DNA of 22,643 nucleotides, from contig CAZUBM010000026.1 in the NCBI GenBank assembly GCA_964618805.1, positions 1 to 22,643 of the forward strand. The letters run 5' to 3'. The position numbers and the translations under genes were made by a program. Shown here in pieces: positions 1,768 to 22,530 of this stretch (within the stretch, counting starts at the first letter, position 1; each line of letters begins with the position of its first letter). This DNA comes from an uncultured Nitrososphaerota archaeon (GTDB lineage: Archaea; Korarchaeota; Korarchaeia; Korarchaeales; Korarchaeaceae). The notes under the pieces are model-generated. The model was not told where the DNA came from and searched no databases. It was given only the letters and a program-made list of their open reading frames with translations.

Positions 1768-2223
1768 TCACTCAAGAAGGCCAGCTTCCCAAAGCAACAT
1801 GCGTAAGACCGCTTTTGGAGATGTTCTAAATAGGCCATGCCATGGCTTTAGCTCAAGAACGATGAGTCCATCATTGTTCCTTAGAGAAAGGAGGTATTGA
1901 TCGTCAGCTAACCTTATTCTCTTATTTCTTGGCCCGAGATAGTAGTAAGAGAATGTGAGCAGGAAATCAGCAGAAACTCTGTTCCCAAAGATGAATTCTA
2001 CTGAAATTTTTGCAATCCTACTGCTATCGATTTTTGAATATCCGCAGCCATCGTTAACCCTTATAGAAATCTTTCTGTAGACGTACTTGTTTTCCCTCTT
2101 GGAGGAGATGCCCGTAAGCATGAGATCAACGCATCCATCTATTTGCAGTAAGCCGAAAAGAAACCTCACGAAACACTCCTCTTCTCTCCCCAGATTGAAA
2201 CTGTGGACCTCTGTAGCCCTCAC
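1768..2223 (-). CDS. Hypothetical protein, translationally coupled to hef
   Basis: 151-aa ORF. Its GTG start overlaps the hef stop (GTGA) and follows GAGGA. It fills the gap to the convergent UPF0148 gene. No family recognised. Confidence 0.7.
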   Translation of the reverse strand: MRATEVHSFNLGREEECFVRFLFGLLQIDGCVDLMLTGISSKRENKYVYRKISIRVNDGCGYSKIDSSRIAKISVEFIFGNRVSADFLLTFSYYYLGPRNKRIRLADDQYLLSLRNNDGLIVLELKPWHGLFRTSPKAVLRMLLWEAGLLE

Positions 2224-4472
2224 TTTTCCTCACCGTACTCCTTGTTTGCAAATTCAACTATTCTTTTGGCAATTAGAGGCCCAACTCCCTCAACTGATTG
2301 CAATTCCTCTTCTGAAGCGGAGAAAATTCTCTTCAACGTGCCAAATGAGCTTAACAAATTTCTAGCAATAACTATCCCAACTCCAGGAATTCCGGTAAGT
2401 ATTCTTTCCAAAATAGCCTTTTCATCTACTGCCGGAGGATGTTTAACTTCAGGAATTACCCTTCTATCGCTTTGCTCCCTTATTGCCAATAATCTAATTA
2501 GCTCCGCGCTTTCTTCAGGGTTATTTGCCCAAAGGATTGGTAAACCGCTGGCTACCAGGCTTGATACCAATCCCATCAATGATCTAGGGTTAACACCTCT
2601 TTTCTTTGATCTATATGGCGTTTCGCCTTCGATAAGGAGGATTGGCTTCTTGTATGTTGCTCTTAGCCTTTTTATCTGATCAAATATCCTTCCATCGACC
2701 AAAGAAGATGCTAGATCGTCTACAGTCTTCCTTTCTATTGCAATCTCATCGCTAACTATGTAGTCACCAATCTCCAATCTAGAAACGCTTATTTTTACAT
2801 CAGGATAGGATGCAAGCTTCCTGACCACTTCCCCACCTAGCTCCCTTACATCTACCCTTACAACCACCTCAAGCTTCCTTTCGCCTGGGGGCTCCTGCTT
2901 TTCCTCAGCGGAAAACTCTTCCAAAGTCGGGTGTCTTTCCCTCTCTTTTACTATATTACTCACTTCCTGGAGGGCTTTCATGATTTTCCTCTCTTTTACG
3001 ACAGTTGACCAGTAAAAGGACTCCTCTCTCTTACCAGATATCAAAACAACGACTTTTCCCGGTCTTACTCTCCCAGTCCTTCCTCTCCTCTGAATGTGCC
3101 TTATTACGGAGGGTACTGCATCATAAAAAACTACTAGATCAACCTCTGGTATGTCAAGGCCTTCTTCTCCAACGCTTGTGGCGATTAACAGGTTGTACTT
3201 CCCTGAAGAAAAGTCCTGAAGTATTCTTCTCTGCTCCTCTTGACTCATCCCTTTTAATTCCTCTCTTCTAGCTTGACCAATGAACAGCGAGGCTTTAACC
3301 CCAGCTTCTTCAGCTAAATACTGTAACACCGTTTCAGCCGTTTTCCTGTAATTTACGAATATTATTCCCCTTTTCCCAAGCTTTATCCCTTCTTTATCGA
3401 TTATAGAAACCAGTTCCTTTAATTTTGGATGAACACTCCCTTTTGGAAGGGAATTAAGCCACCTCCATGCTTTAATAACCCTCCAGTCTTCTAAGAGGAG
3501 CCTATCAGATGCCGTCCTCCTCCTTCTCCTGATGACCTTTTCTAGGTATCTTCTGGCAGGCTCTGGCCCCTGGGTTTCCAATAAGTCCATGAAGTAGTGG
3601 AGCTTTATCAGGGCAGCTACTAAAGCGGATGCAAACCTGTCCTCCATTCGTGTAACGGTCTCGATTCTCAGCCGAAGCAAGTCCTTTAGCCTGACGTAGT
3701 CCTTCTTTCCTAGCTCCATTATCCCTCTTTCTTCGAGCTTCCCAAGTAGATCTCTATAAAATGACCTTAGCTCATCCAAGATGGATCTATAATCTTCCGG
3801 AAGGGGAACCCTGATCCAATCTATCCTCAATTTTGCTACATATTTTCTCACATCAGGGCTCGTTCTGGATCTAACTTCTACGTGTTTTATTTTGAGGTTG
3901 TTGATTATCTCCAAAATCTTCTCCTTACTGCTTCCTGGAGAAGCGGTAAGTCCTAATATCCTTGGATTCTTTGCTCTATCCATGTAATGTTTTGCTATGA
4001 GCGTGTAAGGGTAGTCTCCAACAGCCCTGTGAGCTTCATCGAAGACTAATAAAACGAAGTCCGAAAGGTCCAGCCTCCCTGTAAGAATGTCGTTTTCAAC
4101 CGTTTGTGGAGTAGCCGAAAAAACTCTTCCTGAAGCCCAAAGATCAACCCTCTTCTCTGGCGCAACAGCGCCAGTTATCAAAACAATGCGTTCTCCCTCA
4201 ATATTCAGGACTTCAGAGAAAAAACGGTGGTGTTGCATTGCAAGAGGTCTGGTAGGGGCTAATATCATCGCTTTTCCATTAGGAAACTTCTGCAACCTAT
4301 ATGCCATTACCATCGCGGCTATCGAGGTTTTTCCTAACCCAGTAGGAAGTACGACTAGCGTGTTCTCCTCAATAGCTCTTGCTGAAATGAATTGCTGATA
4401 TAACCTTGCTTCTAGCTTTCCTGGTTTAATGAGCGGATGCTGAACGAAGTTTTCATTTGATCTATCTTCCAT
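2220..4472 (-). CDS. hef: Hef (FANCM/Mph1-like SF2 helicase fused to ERCC4/XPF nuclease and HhH2)
   Basis: PTGLGKT, DEAH, TAS, GEEGLDIP and QRRGRTGR helicase motifs; GDY...ERKTVDD nuclease motif; IPGVG/VEGVG HhH pair. Start probably ATG 4472 (ORF open to 4529). Confidence 0.95.
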   Translation of the reverse strand: MEDRSNENFVQHPLIKPGKLEARLYQQFISARAIEENTLVVLPTGLGKTSIAAMVMAYRLQKFPNGKAMILAPTRPLAMQHHRFFSEVLNIEGERIVLITGAVAPEKRVDLWASGRVFSATPQTVENDILTGRLDLSDFVLLVFDEAHRAVGDYPYTLIAKHYMDRAKNPRILGLTASPGSSKEKILEIINNLKIKHVEVRSRTSPDVRKYVAKLRIDWIRVPLPEDYRSILDELRSFYRDLLGKLEERGIMELGKKDYVRLKDLLRLRIETVTRMEDRFASALVAALIKLHYFMDLLETQGPEPARRYLEKVIRRRRRTASDRLLLEDWRVIKAWRWLNSLPKGSVHPKLKELVSIIDKEGIKLGKRGIIFVNYRKTAETVLQYLAEEAGVKASLFIGQARREELKGMSQEEQRRILQDFSSGKYNLLIATSVGEEGLDIPEVDLVVFYDAVPSVIRHIQRRGRTGRVRPGKVVVLISGKREESFYWSTVVKERKIMKALQEVSNIVKERERHPTLEEFSAEEKQEPPGERKLEVVVRVDVRELGGEVVRKLASYPDVKISVSRLEIGDYIVSDEIAIERKTVDDLASSLVDGRIFDQIKRLRATYKKPILLIEGETPYRSKKRGVNPRSLMGLVSSLVASGLPILWANNPEESAELIRLLAIREQSDRRVIPEVKHPPAVDEKAILERILTGIPGVGIVIARNLLSSFGTLKRIFSASEEELQSVEGVGPLIAKRIVEFANKEYGEEK

Positions 4473-4576
4473 ATACAAGCTATTCTTTCTAGCCCTTTGC
4501 TCTTTTAAACTAAATCGGCAACATTGCATTTCTTTTAAACCACTTCATCGCAATGAGTGGGCATTAAATTCAAAAT

Positions 4577-10114: not shown

Positions 10115-11494
10115 ATGCGCTATATCCCTAACACAGATAAGGAACTCATTTGCACGATGTTGAAGGAAATAGGCGTCAAAAGCATAGATGACCTTTTCTC
10201 AGATATACCAGAGAAACTTAGGCTAAAGGAACCTCCGGATATAGGGATTCCGCTGGATGAGGCTGAGCTATACCGGATAGCTAAAGAGGTTCTCTCAAAA
10301 AACGTAACTACAGAGGAATTCCTTTCATTCTTAGGGGGAGGAATATGGGATCATTACGTTCCTGCTGCTGTAGATGAAATAGCAGCTAAGCAGGAATTCT
10401 ATACCGCATACACACCATATCAGCCTGAGATCTCACAAGGAGCCCTTCAAGCAATATTTGAGTACCAATCCCTTATAGCAGAACTTACAGGAATGGAAGT
10501 AGTCAGCGCTTCCCACTATGATTGGTCCACTGCCTTGGCAGAAGCTGCGCTTATGAGCATGAGGATAAATAGAAGGAGCAAACACCTCATTTCTGCTGCC
10601 ATAAGTCCTGAGCGCTTTGAAGTCCTTAAGACGTACTTAAGCCCGCTTGGCGTCACAATAGTTCCCCTTAATTATGAGAGGGAAACGGGCTTTTTGGACC
10701 TAGATGACCTTGAGAAGAAAATAGATGATGAAACGTGCATGGTTTACGTCGAAAACCCGAACTTCTTCGGAGTAATAGATGAAAACGTGGTTAAGCTGGC
10801 CGATGTAGTCCATAAAAAGGGTGCTATATTTGTTATTGGAGTTAATACAATATCTCTTGGTGCTCTAAAGCCTCCTGGAGAATATGGAGCTGACATAGTC
10901 GTTGGAGATGGTCAGCAGCTTGGAATATATCCAAGCTTTGGAGGGCCCTTGTTAGGAATAATTGCAACTAGGTTCGACAGAAGATTCGTAAGACAGATGC
11001 CTGGCAGGCTAGTAGGGATGACTTGGAGCAAAAGGGGGGTTAGGGGATACGTAATAACCCTTCAAACTAGGGAACAGCACATCAGGAGAGAGAGGGCTAC
11101 ATCCAACATAACAACTAACGAGTCTCTTATGGCGATAAGAGCGGCTGTTTACTTGTCTTTGCTCGGAAAAGATGGAATTAAGAGTCTCTGCGAGAAAATG
11201 CTTGTTAACACGGCTTACCTCATGTCAAGGCTTGGTTCAATTGAAGGACTAGAGGTCCCCATTTTCAACTCAAAACACTTTCAGGAATTTCTAGTTAAGA
11301 GTCGGGCGAAAAAATGGTCAGAAATCCAGCAATCTTTGTTAAGAAAGGGAATTTTTGCAGGGATAGATCTAAACAAAAGATTTCCAGGATTCTTTAGCGA
11401 GCTAGGTGAGGTAGCTCTTCTAGCTACTACCGAAATTCACACAAAGGCGGATCTAGATAGGCTTGTAAGGGAGATTGAGGAGGTGATGAGATGA
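10115..11494 (+). CDS. gcvPA: Glycine dehydrogenase (decarboxylating) subunit 1
   Basis: MRYIP, FLGGG...HYVP, FYTAYTPYQPEISQG.LQ..FEYQ, PNFFG, LQTREQHIRRERATSNI.TN. Confidence 0.96.
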   Translation: MRYIPNTDKELICTMLKEIGVKSIDDLFSDIPEKLRLKEPPDIGIPLDEAELYRIAKEVLSKNVTTEEFLSFLGGGIWDHYVPAAVDEIAAKQEFYTAYTPYQPEISQGALQAIFEYQSLIAELTGMEVVSASHYDWSTALAEAALMSMRINRRSKHLISAAISPERFEVLKTYLSPLGVTIVPLNYERETGFLDLDDLEKKIDDETCMVYVENPNFFGVIDENVVKLADVVHKKGAIFVIGVNTISLGALKPPGEYGADIVVGDGQQLGIYPSFGGPLLGIIATRFDRRFVRQMPGRLVGMTWSKRGVRGYVITLQTREQHIRRERATSNITTNESLMAIRAAVYLSLLGKDGIKSLCEKMLVNTAYLMSRLGSIEGLEVPIFNSKHFQEFLVKSRAKKWSEIQQSLLRKGIFAGIDLNKRFPGFFSELGEVALLATTEIHTKADLDRLVREIEEVMR

Positions 11495-13041
11495 CAAGCT
11501 ACTTTAGACAGTCCAGATGGCAGAGGAAAAAGGAGCTAATTGAACCGACGATTTTCGAGCTTTCAAAGGGAAGAAAGAGGGGCTATTATAGGTTTTCGAT
11601 AGAAGAGGAGATGTTGAAGGCGGTGGGAGGAGTTCAAAAGCTTATCCCTGAGGAATTAAGGAGGGATGAGCTTAACCTTCCAAACCTTTCCGAGCCTGAA
11701 GTTGTTAGACACTTTTCCAGGCTTGCAGAGATGAATTATGGCATTGACAGCGGTCCCTACTGGCTGGGCTCATGTACTATGAAGTATAACCCAAAGATCA
11801 ATGAGAAAATTGCAGGAAGCTCGAAGGTAAGAAGGTTGCACCCATATCAACCTGAAGAAACTGTTCAAGGCGCCTTAAAGATAATGTATGAGTTAGGGGA
11901 GATGCTTGGAAAGATCACTGGCCTTAGGCATTGGACATTTCAAACATCCGCAGGGGCCCACGGGGAGTACCTTGGGTGTTCTATCATAAGGGCCTATCAT
12001 CTTGATAGGGGAGAAAAGCAAAGGGATGAGATGCTTATCCCTCTCTCTGCGCATGGATCCAACTTTGCTAGTGCGGCCATGGCTGGTTTCAAGGTTGTCA
12101 GGATACCAATAAATGAAAATGGGTGCACGGATCTGGCCGCTCTTAGGGCAGCAATAGGGGATAGAACTGCTGGAATGATGATAACAAATCCAAATACTCT
12201 TGGAATCTTTGAGGAGGAAGTACAAGAGATAGCTGAGCTCATACATGGTGCTGGAGGACTGTTGTATTACGATGGGGCCAATCTGAACGCTCTTCTGGGG
12301 AAGGTCCTCCTGTCAGCGATGGGGGTGGACTTGGCTCATCTCAACCTTCATAAGACATTTTCAACGCCTCATGGGACAGGAGGACCTGGGGCTGGGGCAG
12401 TTTTAGTTAGGGACGGCCTTGAAGATTTTCTGCCAATCCCAGTCCTAAGAGAGAGGGATGGGCGCTATTACTTCGATTACAAAGTGCCTAAGACCGTTGG
12501 AAGGGTAAAGGCTTTTTATGGAAATTTCGAGGTTCTAGTGAAGGCATGGGCCTATCTGAAGACCTTAGGGACTGATGGTTTGAGGGAAGTTTCTGAGATA
12601 GCTGTGCTCAACGCAAACTATGCGCTTGCAAAATTAAGAGGTCTTAAGTGGGTCTCTGTAGAGTATGGAGGGGATAGGCCAAGGAAACACGAGTTCGTAA
12701 TAAGCTTAAAGGACGCAAGGTCCAAGATCGATGCACCCGCTCTTCACATTGCAAAGAGACTCCTAGATTATGGGCTTCATCCCCCAACCATCTACTTCCC
12801 TCCGGTCGTTGAAGAGGCATTCATGATGGAACCAACAGAAACTGATAGCAAGGAGGACATAGATCGCTATGTTGAAGTAATGCGCAGGATTTTGGAGGAG
12901 GAACTCGAGGAGAACCCTGAGCTGATATTGAATGCGCCTCATAACTCTTCAATAGACCGCTTGGATGAGGTTAGAGCAGCCAGAGAGCCGATATTATCAT
13001 GGAAAATATATGAACGTTATTATAAGAGAGAAAAGGCCTAA
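11491..13041 (+). CDS. gcvPB: Glycine dehydrogenase (decarboxylating) subunit 2
   Basis: LGSCTMKYNP, AGAHGE, TNPNTLG, YYDGAN.N, PLP-lysine motif HLNLHKTFSTPHG.GGPG, EPTET. ATGA overlap with gcvPA. Confidence 0.96.
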   Translation: MTSYFRQSRWQRKKELIEPTIFELSKGRKRGYYRFSIEEEMLKAVGGVQKLIPEELRRDELNLPNLSEPEVVRHFSRLAEMNYGIDSGPYWLGSCTMKYNPKINEKIAGSSKVRRLHPYQPEETVQGALKIMYELGEMLGKITGLRHWTFQTSAGAHGEYLGCSIIRAYHLDRGEKQRDEMLIPLSAHGSNFASAAMAGFKVVRIPINENGCTDLAALRAAIGDRTAGMMITNPNTLGIFEEEVQEIAELIHGAGGLLYYDGANLNALLGKVLLSAMGVDLAHLNLHKTFSTPHGTGGPGAGAVLVRDGLEDFLPIPVLRERDGRYYFDYKVPKTVGRVKAFYGNFEVLVKAWAYLKTLGTDGLREVSEIAVLNANYALAKLRGLKWVSVEYGGDRPRKHEFVISLKDARSKIDAPALHIAKRLLDYGLHPPTIYFPPVVEEAFMMEPTETDSKEDIDRYVEVMRRILEEELEENPELILNAPHNSSIDRLDEVRAAREPILSWKIYERYYKREKA

Positions 13042-15208: not shown

Positions 15209-15445
15209 ATGGATAGAGGCCTTGCACTTTCCCTCTTGCTGATCTTAACCGCATGGTCCCTCGTCATCTTAGGCTTATACCTAATTGCTGAAGCCTTAAT
15301 TCCTTTAGGGGCTCAGGGCGGATTATCAGCAAAAATAGCTGGCATATTAAAGGTGGTAGGAGCATTCATACTCCTTGGAGCCCTGCTTTACGCTTGGTTC
15401 CTCCTGACCAAATACCTTGTCGTTAAGCTAAAGGCTAAGAGCTAA
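15209..15445 (+). CDS. Small two-TM membrane protein of unknown function
   Basis: 78 aa with two hydrophobic helices; GGGGGA SD; 9 nt after the upstream stop. Confidence 0.65.
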   Translation: MDRGLALSLLLILTAWSLVILGLYLIAEALIPLGAQGGLSAKIAGILKVVGAFILLGALLYAWFLLTKYLVVKLKAKS

Positions 15446-16496
15446 GTTTCCTTATTTCTTCCCATAAAACCTCTGCAGGATCTTCGCAGGAATATAGGAA
15501 GGACCTAGCCCTCTTTCTAAGGTCTTTCCTGGCTGATTCATCCTCCATATAATTGATTATCAAATTAGCTACGTCTTCAGGATCAGTAAGCCTTCTTACA
15601 AGGCCTTTTTCTACGAGAAGTTGGGTAACGCAAGGTTCTCTTGTGCCTGGAAACATAGAAATTGAGGGAACTCCAAGAAGGGCGGCCTCCCTCGTCATAG
15701 TACCGCTCGCTCCTATGAAAGCCGTTGCTCCATCCATGAGCGCCAAAGAGTCCTTCGGATCCCTAACCAATATAACATGCTTCCCTAATCTCCCATTTGA
15801 GAGGAGTTCTCTTCCCCTGGGGAAGAGATATATCTTTAGATTTGGCACTTTTCGCGCCAAGATCAGGAGGGTTTCCTCAAACAAAGGTGGTCCAGTCTCT
15901 TTATAGAGGTAGGATGCTCCGAAAGGCGCTGACCTTGCAACAACGTAAGGCTTCCCTTGCCCTTCGATTTCAGCTGAACGTTGTCCCTCCAAGTAATCTA
16001 GAACGTGAGCAACTTCTGTTACCCCTTTAAATCTTCTTACTCTCCCAAGTGCTCCACTGCTTGTAAGCACTTCCTCTGGAAAGACTTCTGGAACCACTAT
16101 TGTCTGACTTAAGGGAAAAACCAGCTTATTCACATGAAAGCTCAGGTCGTTGTCGTTTAAGTTGATAGAAGGAATTCCAAGACCAAACGCAACTCTTGCA
16201 AGCTCTGGAGAAGCTTTTGATGAGGCAACATTTGGAGAGAATTCAGCAACAATATTTGCAAGAGAAGAAACCCTCTCCAGGTGTTTTGAAAGTTTTTCAA
16301 CTAGGGAGGTGCCATGAGATCCTATTACCCTTATTTTTTCCGAATATTTAGCTAGAAAAAAACCAACGAGTTCAGGAAGGTTATCTAAACGTCTACAACT
16401 TATTAAAAGGTCATCTATCTCTTTTGAATGCTTTTTCAGTAGTCTCAAAAAGAGTCTCACGTGTGGTAGATTAACTAAATCAATCCAAAGCCTCAT
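15435..16496 (-). CDS. DUF354 family protein (GT-B fold, glycosyltransferase / UDP-GlcNAc epimerase-like)
   Basis: MRLWID..N.PHV..F, IG.HG....KL, SPELARVAFGLGIPSI..ND, GTMTREAALLGVPSIS. True start is ATG 16496; the ORF-track extension to 16622 lies inside the tRNA. Confidence 0.88.
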   Translation of the reverse strand: MRLWIDLVNLPHVRLFLRLLKKHSKEIDDLLISCRRLDNLPELVGFFLAKYSEKIRVIGSHGTSLVEKLSKHLERVSSLANIVAEFSPNVASSKASPELARVAFGLGIPSINLNDNDLSFHVNKLVFPLSQTIVVPEVFPEEVLTSSGALGRVRRFKGVTEVAHVLDYLEGQRSAEIEGQGKPYVVARSAPFGASYLYKETGPPLFEETLLILARKVPNLKIYLFPRGRELLSNGRLGKHVILVRDPKDSLALMDGATAFIGASGTMTREAALLGVPSISMFPGTREPCVTQLLVEKGLVRRLTDPEDVANLIINYMEDESARKDLRKRARSFLYSCEDPAEVLWEEIRKLSS

Positions 16497-16518
16497 TCCT
16501 GGCCACCAAATGAATATA

Positions 16519-16665
16519 TGGGCCCGGCGGGACTTGAACCCGCGACCTCCGGCTTTCTTAGGCTTCTTGGCTTCCCTAGATTGTCCGGAGCGCAGCCATA
16601 TAAGGCTTACGCGTTGGCTCATAGGAGCCGAACTCGGCGCTCCATCCAGGCTGAGCTACGGGCCC
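16519..16665 (-). tRNA. tRNA-Ile(TAT) with two introns (29/30: 16607-16634; 37/38: 16555-16598)
   Basis: Exons 16665-16635, 16606-16599 and 16554-16519 join to GGGCCCG TA GCTC AGCCTGGATG GAGC G CCGGC CT TAT AA GCCGG AGGTC GCGGG TTCAAGT CCCGC CGGGCCC A, a perfect cloverleaf with no encoded CCA. Intron 2 forms a strict BHB (CTTA/TAAG helix, GGCT/AGCC outer helix). Intron 1 forms a relaxed BHB (GCGC/GCGT, GTT/AAC). Confidence 0.88.
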
Positions 16666-16687: not shown

Positions 16688-16702
16688 TATATTAAAAGTT
16701 TC
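16688..16702. promoter_or_regulatory. TATA element between the divergent tRNA-Ile and OB-fold genes
   Basis: Minus strand GAAAC-TTTTAATATA about 23-37 nt upstream of the tRNA 5' end. The same tract lies about 30 nt upstream of ATG 16727 on the + strand. Confidence 0.45.
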
Positions 16703-16726: not shown

Positions 16727-17236
16727 ATGTCTCGTTCTTACGGACCCGCGGTGAGAGTTAGAATAGAAGATATACTCAAAGGAGAGTTTGAAGAGACTAC
16801 TTTAGATGCAGCCAGGTTCCTAAGATTGCCGTCCATTCTCGGTGTTTCAAGTCTGGTCAGTCGAGTGAGGGTTCTGGGGATAGTCACCTACTCCACAGTA
16901 AGCGAGGATCGTAGGTATGGTAAAATAATCTTAGAGGATGGTACGGGAAGAATATCGCTCAGAGTATGGGAAGAGGACGTTGATCTAATATTAGATCCTG
17001 ATACAGGTGATCCATATGGTGTAGGTACGATTCTTGATGTAATAGCGAAGATAAGAGCGTATAAGGGGGAGAAATATCTTTACCCAACCTTAATCGTCAA
17101 ACTTGAGGACCCCAATTGGCTCATAGTTAGCAACCTAGAATTGATGAGACGCCGTCTAAAGTTTATAATAACGTTTTTGAGATCTTCTTCTGAAAAATTC
17201 AAGGCTACAGGGCTTGAAGAGGGCCAGAAACCCTGA
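16727..17236 (+). CDS. Single OB-fold nucleic-acid-binding protein (RPA2/RPA32-like)
   Basis: SRVRVLGIV...YG.I.LEDGTG.I.LRVW...G..LDVI.KIR.Y.GEKYL.P..I.KL.DPNW pattern. Confidence 0.75.
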   Translation: MSRSYGPAVRVRIEDILKGEFEETTLDAARFLRLPSILGVSSLVSRVRVLGIVTYSTVSEDRRYGKIILEDGTGRISLRVWEEDVDLILDPDTGDPYGVGTILDVIAKIRAYKGEKYLYPTLIVKLEDPNWLIVSNLELMRRRLKFIITFLRSSSEKFKATGLEEGQKP

Positions 17237-22300: not shown

Positions 22301-22378
22301 GCTCCGGTGGTGTAGTCCGGTCAAGCATAGGGGCCTTTCGAGCCCCAGACCCGGGTTCAAATCCCGGCCGGAGCACCA
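22301..22378 (+). tRNA. tRNA-Glu(TTC), CCA encoded
   Basis: GCTCCGG/CCGGAGC acceptor stem; GGGGC-CT TTC GA-GCCCC anticodon arm; GGTTCAAATCC T arm; ends ACCA. Confidence 0.96.
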
Positions 22379-22410: not shown

Positions 22411-22530
22411 GCGGGGGTAGCCAAGCTAGGTCCAAATCTTTGGGATTCCCCTCAAAGATGACCAAAGGCGCTCGGTTCAGGGCCGAGTGGGCGTAGGCCC
22501 GCGCGGGTTCAAATCCCGCCCCCCGCACCA
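22411..22530 (+). tRNA. tRNA-Leu(CAG) with a 31-nt D-loop intron (21/22; 22435-22465), CCA encoded
   Basis: GCGGGGG/CCCCCGC acceptor stem; CTCGG-TT CAG GG-CCGAG; long variable arm GGGC-GTAG-GCCC. Intron BHB: GGTC/GACC helix, CA|A and AA|A bulges, ATCTTTG/CAAAGAT outer stem. Confidence 0.93.

What the first reader, a model, noticed from the sequence alone, without database searches (positions are those of the whole stretch)
16519..16665. Cryptic tRNA-Ile with a UAU anticodon: non-standard AUA decoding
Seen: removing two BHB introns gives a perfect cloverleaf with anticodon TAT (16602-16600). A35 pairs with a T in the intron-2 BHB helix (CTTA/TAAG), which argues against a base-call error. ATA codons are common in the neighbouring genes. 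Known: almost all archaea read AUA with a CAU-anticodon tRNA-Ile2 modified to agmatidine by TiaS; UAU tRNA-Ile is reported in only a few archaea (Nanoarchaeum equitans, Ca. Korarchaeum cryptofilum). Inference: this organism may lack tiaS and separate AUA from AUG by a U34-based mechanism, possibly an uncharacterised modification.
Basis: partly seen in the sequence, partly recalled or inferred. Interest (0 to 1): 0.9.

Follow-up and report, generated by a model that had tools for sequence, protein, structure and literature searches.

The report
Two-intron tRNA-Ile(UAU) gene in a korarchaeote
This is a real isoleucine tRNA gene, split by two introns, with the rare UAU anticodon, and it seems to be the organism's only reader of the common AUA codon; the organism looks like a member of the Korarchaeota, where this arrangement is already known.

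Summary
Window 16665..16519 (- strand) is a 147-nt pre-tRNA (Rfam tRNA 42.2 bits). A search of my own for splicing motifs plus a cloverleaf gives one solution: introns at 16634-16607 (tRNA position 29/30) and 16598-16555 (37/38), anticodon TAT at 16602-16600.

The genome (93.7% complete) yields 46 tRNA genes, one per expected anticodon. Only two carry CAT, an initiator-type and an elongator-Met-type. No TiaS was found and no TilS over its cut-off. ATA makes up 49% of Ile codons and aligns with Ile, Val or Leu in homologues.

The trait is lineage-wide. TiaS_FLD was found in 0 of 37 genomes of the phylum-level group. A TAT tRNA was resolved in 38 of 43, plus one truncated copy.

The nearest informatively named homologues are "Candidatus Korarchaeota". 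Ca. Korarchaeum cryptofilum is already known to use tRNA-Ile(UAU) without TiaS (PMC6000648, PMC8450103).

How U34 avoids reading AUG remains untested. Interest 0.3.

The parts
16519..16665 (-). Whole pre-tRNA-Ile(UAU) gene, 147 nt. CCA is not encoded.
   Evidence: Rfam RF00005 scores 42.2 bits. My solver gives a unique cloverleaf solution.
16635..16665 (-). Exon 1: acceptor 5' strand, D arm, and the first 3 nt of the anticodon stem.
   Evidence: It is invariant or nearly so in 8 aligned orthologues.
16607..16634 (-). Intron 1, 28 nt, at tRNA position 29/30. It has a relaxed BHB motif: a central 4-bp helix, two 3-nt bulges and an inner helix, but no outer helix.
   Evidence: Solver BHB score (H, h', h) = (4, 3, 0). 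The intron hairpin shows a compensatory change in G001.
16599..16606 (-). Exon 2, 8 nt: the last 2 nt of the anticodon stem 5' strand and loop positions 32-37.
   Evidence: GCCTTATA is invariant in 8 of 8 aligned orthologues.
16600..16602 (-). Anticodon TAT (UAU).
   Evidence: A 148-nt contig of run X1 covers it with 0 differences, but X1 may be the source sample.
16555..16598 (-). Intron 2, 44 nt, at the canonical position 37/38, with a strict hBHBh' motif. Its TAAG (16560-16557) pairs with loop CTTA (16604-16601).
   Evidence: Solver BHB score (4, 4, 2). The outer helix is cut short only because intron 1 interrupts the stem. Its length varies from 25 to 44 nt within the genus.
16519..16554 (-). 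Exon 3: loop position 38, anticodon stem 3' strand, variable loop, T arm, acceptor 3' strand and discriminator A73.
   Evidence: The T arm, acceptor stem and A73 are identical to those of the genome's tRNA-Ile(GAU).
16688..16697 (.). A+T-rich TATA-like element TTTTAATATA (read on the - strand), 23-32 nt upstream of the mature 5' end. It lies between the tRNA and the divergent gene that starts at 16727.
   Evidence: Read directly. Its role as a promoter is inferred from the usual archaeal TATA-box spacing (my own knowledge) and was not tested.

Best explanation
This is a functional gene for tRNA-Ile with anticodon UAU, interrupted by two BHB (bulge-helix-bulge) introns at positions 29/30 and 37/38.

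Proposed pathway:
1. It is probably transcribed from its own TATA-like promoter (inferred).
2. Both introns are cut by the genome's single splicing endonuclease, a 369-aa protein with a tandem two-unit architecture. The gene is found; its activity on this substrate is inferred.
3. The three exons are ligated, CCA is added, and IleRS charges the tRNA (all inferred).

It is the only AUA decoder of an organism that has no TiaS and no CAU-type tRNA-Ile2 (shown by absence in a 93.7%-complete genome and in relatives). ATA is the commonest Ile codon (shown). The state is ancestral to the whole phylum-level group, which looks like the Korarchaeota (shown for the group; the name is inferred from homologue labels).

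How U34 avoids reading AUG is unknown. My split, by inference only:
- About 60%: a modified U34. The anticodon stem-loop differs from that of tRNA-Arg(UCU) at position 35 and at two stem positions, and an Elp3-like gene and PP-loop ATPases are present.
- About 25%: an unmodified U34 with an adapted IleRS and ribosome, as in Mycoplasma mobile.
- About 15%: pseudouridine or another intron-dependent modification.
For: Gene and anticodon:
- Rfam scores it 42.2 bits as a tRNA.
- My solver gives a single solution, TAT.

Complete tRNA set:
- I found 46 tRNA genes, one per expected archaeal anticodon, and only 2 with CAT.
- One CAT tRNA has the initiator-type A1:U72 end. The other has an acceptor stem unlike either Ile tRNA.

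Isoleucine identity:
- The acceptor stem, T arm and discriminator A73 are identical to those of tRNA-Ile(GAU). The similar Arg and Lys tRNAs have G73.

No C34-modifying enzyme:
- TiaS_FLD gave 0 hits in the genome, while the control rang in 4 of 4 archaeal control genomes.
- tblastn with 4 TiaS proteins gave a best E of 0.023.
- The two TilS-model matches are below the cut-off, 57 and 48 bits against 93.6.

Codon use and meaning:
- ATA is 39.3 per 1000 codons and 49% of Ile codons.
- At the 21 ATA codons of topoisomerase VI B, 22 homologues have I 65%, V 23%, L 7% and M 2%.

Conservation:
- A TAT tRNA was resolved in 38 of 43 genomes of the group, plus one truncated copy. Exons are conserved, introns diverge, and the T stem shows compensatory changes.
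- TiaS_FLD was found in 0 of 37 of those genomes.

Supporting genes in the genome:
- A splicing endonuclease is present.
- An Elp3-like gene is present.
Against: - There is no RNA evidence. No RNA run was listed, so splicing, charging and the state of U34 are unobserved.
- The genome is 93.7% complete in 62 contigs, so absence of tiaS or of a third CAT tRNA in this genome alone is not proof.
- My tRNA census rests on a scanner of my own, not on tRNAscan-SE. One gene, Phe(GAA) at C12:60802-60922, was read by eye because the solver failed on it.
- Intron 1 lacks the outer BHB helix. The review PMC4090602 groups Korarchaeota with lineages that have alpha4- or alpha2-type endonucleases and places non-canonical introns mostly in lineages with alpha2-beta2 enzymes. 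Cleavage of intron 1 is therefore assumed, not shown.
- A haloarchaeal Ile tRNA mutated to U34 also bound AUG (PMC3895270), so a UAU anticodon alone does not explain fidelity.
Confidence: 0.9

Rival explanations
1. The UAU tRNA is redundant or a relic. The normal tRNA-Ile2(CAU) and tiaS exist but lie in the unassembled roughly 6% of the genome.
For: The genome is 93.69% complete in 62 contigs. tRNA genes can be lost at contig ends; for example, the Asn tRNA is split between the ends of C29 and C1.
Against: - All 46 expected anticodons are already accounted for, once each.
- TiaS_FLD is absent from 0 of 37 related genomes, including a one-contig genome rated 99% complete.
- The same TAT tRNA is present in 38 of 43 relatives.
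- The exons are under purifying selection while the introns drift.
Confidence: 0.03
2. The gene splices differently, or not at all, so the mature anticodon is not UAU or the gene is a pseudogene.
For: - ARAGORN in intron mode reads it as Ser(cga) with one 72-nt intron.
- Intron 1 has a relaxed BHB motif.
- There are no RNA data.
Against: - The ARAGORN reading requires a single intron without a BHB motif. My solver found no other cloverleaf-compatible solution.
- Related genera carry the same exons with one intron only and give the same TAT loop.
- GCCTTATA is invariant in 8 of 8 aligned copies while both introns vary.
Confidence: 0.02
3. AUA is not isoleucine here. The UAU tRNA could be charged with Met or another residue, as in some mitochondria.
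For: None was found. I considered this only because a U34 anticodon can also pair with AUG (PMC3895270).
Against: - ATA positions align with I, V or L in 95% of homologue residues and with M in 2%. ATG positions align with M in 36%.
- The tRNA shares its discriminator, acceptor stem and T arm with tRNA-Ile(GAU), not with the Met tRNAs.
Confidence: 0.01

Closest known systems
tRNA-Ile(UAU), called 'tRNA-Ile3', of Ca. Korarchaeum cryptofilum OPF8
   Same: - UAU anticodon, with no tRNA-Ile2(CAU) and no TiaS.
- Very similar to the same genome's tRNA-Ile(GAU), and contains an intron (PMC6000648, passages read; PMC8450103, passages read).
- A one-contig genome of the same family-level group (G013) carries a TAT tRNA with one 32-nt intron and has no TiaS hit. 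This is consistent with the published description, but I did not establish which organism G013 is.
   Different: - The window's genus has two introns (29/30 and 37/38) against one.
- In the single-intron genera the best BHB register puts the cut one nucleotide earlier. It yields the same mature RNA.
- This is a different genus: topoisomerase VI B is only 60-62% identical to proteins labelled Korarchaeota. The runs that hold the stretch are recorded as hydrothermal vent metagenomes.
tRNA-Ile(UAU) of Nanoarchaeum equitans and of ARMAN-2, -4 and -5
   Same: - These archaea lack both TiaS and tRNA-Ile2(CAU) and encode a UAU tRNA.
- The ARMAN-2 pre-tRNA has a 25-nt intron at 37/38 in a strict hBHBh' motif, cleaved in vitro (PMC3239211, passages read).
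- One small outgroup genome here (G039, 0.8 Mb, no TiaS hit) also has a TAT tRNA with a 32-nt 37/38 intron.
   Different: They are unrelated lineages with small genomes. The loss is presumably independent (inference).
Bacterial tRNA-Ile2(UAU) of Mycoplasma mobile
   Same: It decodes AUA without a modified C34 in an organism that lacks the C34-modifying enzyme (PMC3575796, passages read).
   Different: - It is bacterial and has no introns.
- U34 is shown to be unmodified, and a specific IleRS residue (Arg865) is shown to matter.
- Nothing equivalent was tested here, and archaeal IleRS is of the other (eukaryotic) type according to that paper.
Eukaryotic tRNA-Ile(UAU) with a Psi-A-Psi anticodon
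   Same: The gene has a UAU anticodon and always carries an intron next to it. In yeast, Psi34 and Psi36 are made only on the intron-containing precursor, by Pus1 (PMC4090602, passage read).
   Different: No TruA/Pus1-family match was found in this genome (PF01416, 0 hits). Intron dependence of any modification here is pure conjecture.

Membership tests
tRNA (Rfam RF00005) | The score reaches the curated gathering threshold, with acceptor, D, anticodon and T arms present. | tested here: met
   It scores 42.2 bits against a threshold of 29. After removal of the two introns, all four stems are fully paired.
TiaS-independent AUA decoder, tRNA-Ile(UAU) | The mature anticodon is UAU. | tested here: met
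   There is a single splicing solution. Orthologues with one, two or three introns give the same loop. Only the gene was examined, not the RNA.
TiaS-independent AUA decoder, tRNA-Ile(UAU) | The body of the tRNA has isoleucine identity. | tested here: inconclusive
   The acceptor stem, T arm and A73 are identical to tRNA-Ile(GAU), and overall identity is 87%. However, it is 91% identical to tRNA-Arg(UCU), which differs at A73/G73 and at position 35. Charging was not tested.
TiaS-independent AUA decoder, tRNA-Ile(UAU) | There is no tRNA-Ile2(CAU) in the genome. | tested here: met
   There are 2 CAT genes among the 46 found, one initiator-type and one elongator-Met-type. The genome is 93.7% complete.
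TiaS-independent AUA decoder, tRNA-Ile(UAU) | There is no TiaS and no TilS. | tested here: met
   PF08489 gave 0 hits in the genome and 0 of 37 in relatives. tblastn gave a best E of 0.023. The TIGR02432 matches are below the cut-off.
TiaS-independent AUA decoder, tRNA-Ile(UAU) | AUA is used and means Ile. | tested here: met
   ATA is 49% of Ile codons. ATA positions align with I, V or L (one gene with 22 homologues).
Archaeal BHB intron | Two 3-nt bulges are separated by a 4-bp helix, and the cuts reproduce the exon junctions. | tested here: met
   Both introns have H = 4 of 4 pairs at exactly the junctions the cloverleaf requires.
Archaeal BHB intron | Flanking helices h and h' are both present (the strict form). 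| tested here: inconclusive
   Intron 2 has both. Intron 1 has h' only, with h = 0. This is the relaxed form, and cleavage by this genome's enzyme is untested.
Archaeal BHB intron | A splicing endonuclease is encoded. | tested here: met
   There is one 369-aa ORF with two N-terminal and two catalytic endonuclease domains. The same architecture occurs in 5 of 5 relatives checked.

The most novel reading that the evidence does not exclude
The intron next to the anticodon is retained in every archaeal tRNA-Ile(UAU) gene examined because a U34 (and/or U36) modification is made only on the intron-paired precursor, as in eukaryotic Psi-A-Psi tRNA-Ile. AUA decoding in the Korarchaeota would then be mechanistically eukaryote-like.

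What fits:
- The intron is present in 38 of 38 resolved in-group genes and in one outgroup gene here.
- ARMAN-2 and K. cryptofilum also have it, according to the papers read.
- In the closed relative G013, at least 32 of 45 tRNA matches are intron-free by length, yet the UAU gene keeps its intron.

What counts against it:
- No Pus1/TruA-family gene was found.
- Introns are common in this genome anyway, in 22 of 46 tRNA genes.
Probability: 0.12. Interest if true: 0.65.

Novelty: new member of a known kind. Interest (0 to 1): 0.3.

Why it matters
- It shows that the TiaS-free, UAU-based way of reading AUA is not a quirk of one korarchaeal genome. It appears to be the state of the whole sampled group: TiaS in 0 of 37 genomes, and a TAT tRNA in 38 of 43.
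- This holds in a genome where AUA is the most used Ile codon, so the system must be efficient and accurate.
- The chemistry that keeps a U34 anticodon from reading AUG in archaea is still unknown. This lineage offers many natural sequences for testing it.
- Practically, standard tRNA finders miss or mislabel this gene. Automated annotation of such genomes would therefore report a missing AUA decoder.

Tried and rejected
- ARAGORN in default mode missed the gene. In intron mode it gave a wrong Ser(cga) call, plus a spurious 'tat' tRNA at C12:29600-29689, which is A+T-rich sequence without a T arm.
- The whole-genome Rfam look did not list the gene.
- The first genome-contig scan, with the neighbouring DUF354 protein, found no relative. 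The second, with glycine dehydrogenase subunit 2, returned only distant named hits of 58% identity or less, so it was useless for placing the organism.
- The ESM Atlas gave only broad labels.
- I looked for published Korarchaeota-specific 16S primers to test on the partial 16S gene at C27. The one paper held names the primers without their sequences, so I dropped that test.
- PMC4615378 is not held.
- No RNA holder was listed, so I had no view of expression or splicing.
- Laying contigs of four runs gave full cover of the gene only in X1, which may be the source sample. The other three runs matched only tRNA exons of other genes, with no cover over 16582-16623.
- The TAT tRNA was not found in G017 and G049 (72% and 80% complete). 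It was not resolved in G031, where a 122-nt candidate in L105 had no solver solution. G030 had no BLAST match and was not examined further.
- For family f2 the borders of a third insertion in the D arm were not settled.
- Supplementary tables of PMC6000648 and PMC3575796, which list tRNA sets and TAT-bearing species, were not seen and may name further lineages.

Full report
**What is there**

The - strand of window 16665..16519 reads as a tRNA precursor of 147 nt. Rfam's tRNA model matches it end to end at 42.2 bits (gathering score 29, E = 5e-6) and skips 83 nt inside the anticodon arm. I number the precursor from 1 = 16665.

- The acceptor strand is 1-7 and the D arm is 10-27. The anticodon stem is made of 29-31 plus 60-61 on the 5' side and 113-117 on the 3' side. 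The loop is 62-67 plus 112.
- Two stretches must therefore be removed: 32-59 (28 nt, tRNA position 29/30) and 68-111 (44 nt, position 37/38).
- Each is bounded by an archaeal bulge-helix-bulge (BHB) motif whose cut sites fall exactly on these junctions.
- For intron 2 the central helix is CTTA (62-65) paired with TAAG (106-109). The 3-nt bulges are 66-68 and 110-112, and the inner helix is 69-72 paired with 102-105.
- For intron 1 the central helix is 26-29 paired with 54-57. The bulges are 30-32 and 58-60, the inner helix is 33-35 paired with 51-53, and there is no outer helix.

**Is it more than chance?**

I wrote a scanner and a solver. The scanner looks for a T arm plus a 7-bp acceptor stem. 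The solver enumerates up to three BHB-compatible removals and requires a full cloverleaf. For this precursor it tested 81 candidate introns and returned one solution, the one above.

Standard tools do badly here. ARAGORN misses the gene or calls it Ser(cga) with one 72-nt intron. The whole-genome Rfam look did not list it.

**The tRNA set of the genome**

The window is contig C26 of a 2.18-Mb, 62-contig assembly rated 93.69% complete.

- My scan and solver, with one gene read by eye (Phe GAA at C12:60802-60922), give 46 tRNA genes, one for each anticodon expected in an archaeon. 22 of them carry introns.
- Only two have CAT. One starts A1 and ends U72, the initiator type. The other has an acceptor stem unlike either Ile tRNA.
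- tRNA-Ile(GAU) is at C12:22082-22178.
- A partial tRNA at the start of C1 duplicates the Asn gene at the end of C29. ARAGORN's 'tat' call on C12 is A+T-rich sequence with no T arm.
- The UAU tRNA shares its acceptor stem, T arm and discriminator A73 with tRNA-Ile(GAU). The very similar Arg and Lys tRNAs have G73.

**No enzyme for a modified C34**

- The TiaS_FLD profile finds nothing in the genome, while it rings in all four archaeal control genomes.
- tblastn with four full-length TiaS proteins taken from outgroup archaea gives nothing better than E = 0.023.
- The TilS model gives two matches below its cut-off, 57 and 48 bits against 93.6. The four archaeal control genomes are likewise not over the cut-off.

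**Codon use and meaning**

In ORFs of at least 250 codons, ATA is 39.3 per 1000 codons and 49% of Ile codons. In ten window genes I counted ATA 174, ATT 83 and ATC 60.

At the 21 ATA codons of the topoisomerase VI B gene, 22 homologues have Ile 65%, Val 23%, Leu 7% and Met 2%. At ATG codons Met is the commonest residue. So AUA means Ile and is heavily used.

**Relatives**

The tool's phylum-level group holds 43 species genomes, counting this one.

- TiaS_FLD was found in 0 of the 37 I searched. These were G000-G031 and five more among the 29 genomes of at least 85% completeness. They include a one-contig genome rated 99% complete.
- Five of nine outgroup archaea have TiaS_FLD.
- A TAT-anticodon tRNA was resolved in 38 of the 43 genomes, and a copy cut by a contig end was found in one more.
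- It was not found in two incomplete genomes, was unresolved in one, and one genome was not examined further.
- Within the window's genus the gene has the same two introns. Intron 2 ranges from 25 to 44 nt.
- Two sister families also have the 29/30 and 37/38 introns.
- Four other genera of the same family have one intron only. There the best BHB register puts the cut one nucleotide earlier and yields the same mature RNA.
- In the 8-sequence alignment the exons, including GCCTTATA, are invariant. The introns differ in sequence and length, and the T stem shows compensatory changes.

**What organism is this?**

- The best homologues of topoisomerase VI B that carry an informative label, at 60-62% identity, are labelled 'Candidatus Korarchaeota archaeon'. 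A 90%-identical protein carries the broad label 'Thermoproteota archaeon'. Below 55% the labels become Bathyarchaeota or Methanomethylicia.
- The runs that hold the stretch are recorded as hydrothermal vent metagenomes, and one of them may be the source sample.
- The papers I read in passages state that Ca. Korarchaeum cryptofilum has tRNA-Ile(UAU) with one intron, close to its own tRNA-Ile(GAU), and no tRNA-Ile2 (PMC6000648; PMC8450103).
- The same papers and others report this for Nanoarchaeum equitans, and for ARMAN-2, -4 and -5, which also lack TiaS (PMC3239211; PMC3895270).
- I therefore read the window as a korarchaeote of another genus that shows the lineage's known trait. The name rests on labels of homologues, not on a tree.

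**How it works**

Shown:
- the gene and its motifs;
- the absence of the alternative system;
- heavy use of AUA as Ile;
- a single splicing endonuclease gene of 369 aa with two N-terminal and two catalytic domains, of the same build in 5 of 5 relatives checked.

Inferred:
- transcription from the TATA-like element at 16688-16697;
- cleavage of both introns, ligation, CCA addition, and charging by IleRS.

Unknown: how U34 avoids AUG. The background from the literature is as follows.
- A haloarchaeal Ile tRNA mutated to U34 acquired cnm5U and bound AUA, then AUG, then AUU in decreasing order (PMC3895270).
- M. mobile uses an unmodified U34 with an adapted IleRS (PMC3575796).
- Yeast makes Psi34 and Psi36 only on the intron-containing precursor, through Pus1 (PMC4090602).

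In this genome an Elp3-like gene and a TruD gene are present, and no TruA/Pus1-family match was found. The anticodon stem-loop differs from that of tRNA-Arg(UCU) at position 35 and at two stem positions. Whatever modifies U34 there may therefore act here too. That is conjecture.

**Verdict**

The case is a new member of a known kind, not a new decoding system. The points that may be new are modest:
- the two-intron gene structure;
- the apparent universality of the trait across the group;
- the retention of an intron next to the anticodon in every copy examined.

Interest 0.3.

Noticed in passing
window 22411-22527 (+), next to tRNA-Glu(UUC) at 22301-22375: This is a tRNA-Leu(CAG) gene with a 31-nt intron in the D loop (precursor 25-55). 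ARAGORN misses it in default mode and calls it Pro(tgg) in intron mode.
   Followed up: partly
G000:C28, about 10944-12053 (L168:673-1782): The only splicing endonuclease gene found is a single 369-aa ORF with a tandem two-unit build (alpha2-like). Yet 22 of 46 tRNA genes have introns, several at non-canonical places such as the D arm, 29/30 and the variable region. The review PMC4090602 places non-canonical introns mostly in lineages with alpha2-beta2 enzymes. The same build occurs in 5 of 5 relatives checked.
   Followed up: partly
window 16688-16697: One A+T-rich TATA-like element sits between the tRNA gene (- strand) and the divergent OB-fold gene that starts at 16727 (+ strand). It is at a plausible distance from both, so it may be a shared bidirectional promoter element.
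   Followed up: no
window 15435-16622 (-): The mechanical ORF of the DUF354 gene overlaps the tRNA. The Pfam match starts at residue 44, and an in-frame ATG at 16496 lies 23 nt downstream of the tRNA 3' end, so the real start is probably there.
   Followed up: partly
window 2220-4529 (-): This is a long Hef-like protein of 769 aa with helicase, ERCC4 nuclease and helix-hairpin-helix domains.
   Followed up: no
outgroup genomes G035, G036, G039 and G040 (0.5-1.0 Mb): Four small archaeal genomes outside the group also lack a TiaS_FLD match. G039 has a TAT-anticodon tRNA with a 32-nt intron at 37/38 in a strict BHB motif.
   Followed up: partly
G000:C1:1-46 and G000:C29:18570-18642: The same tRNA-Asn(GUU) is cut at the start of C1 and is complete at the end of C29, so these two contigs probably adjoin.
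   Followed up: no
G000:C27:57-824 (-): Only the 5' half of a 16S rRNA gene is assembled. It matches the archaeal SSU model in three pieces, at model positions 4-496, 517-705 and 710-751, at a contig end.
   Followed up: no
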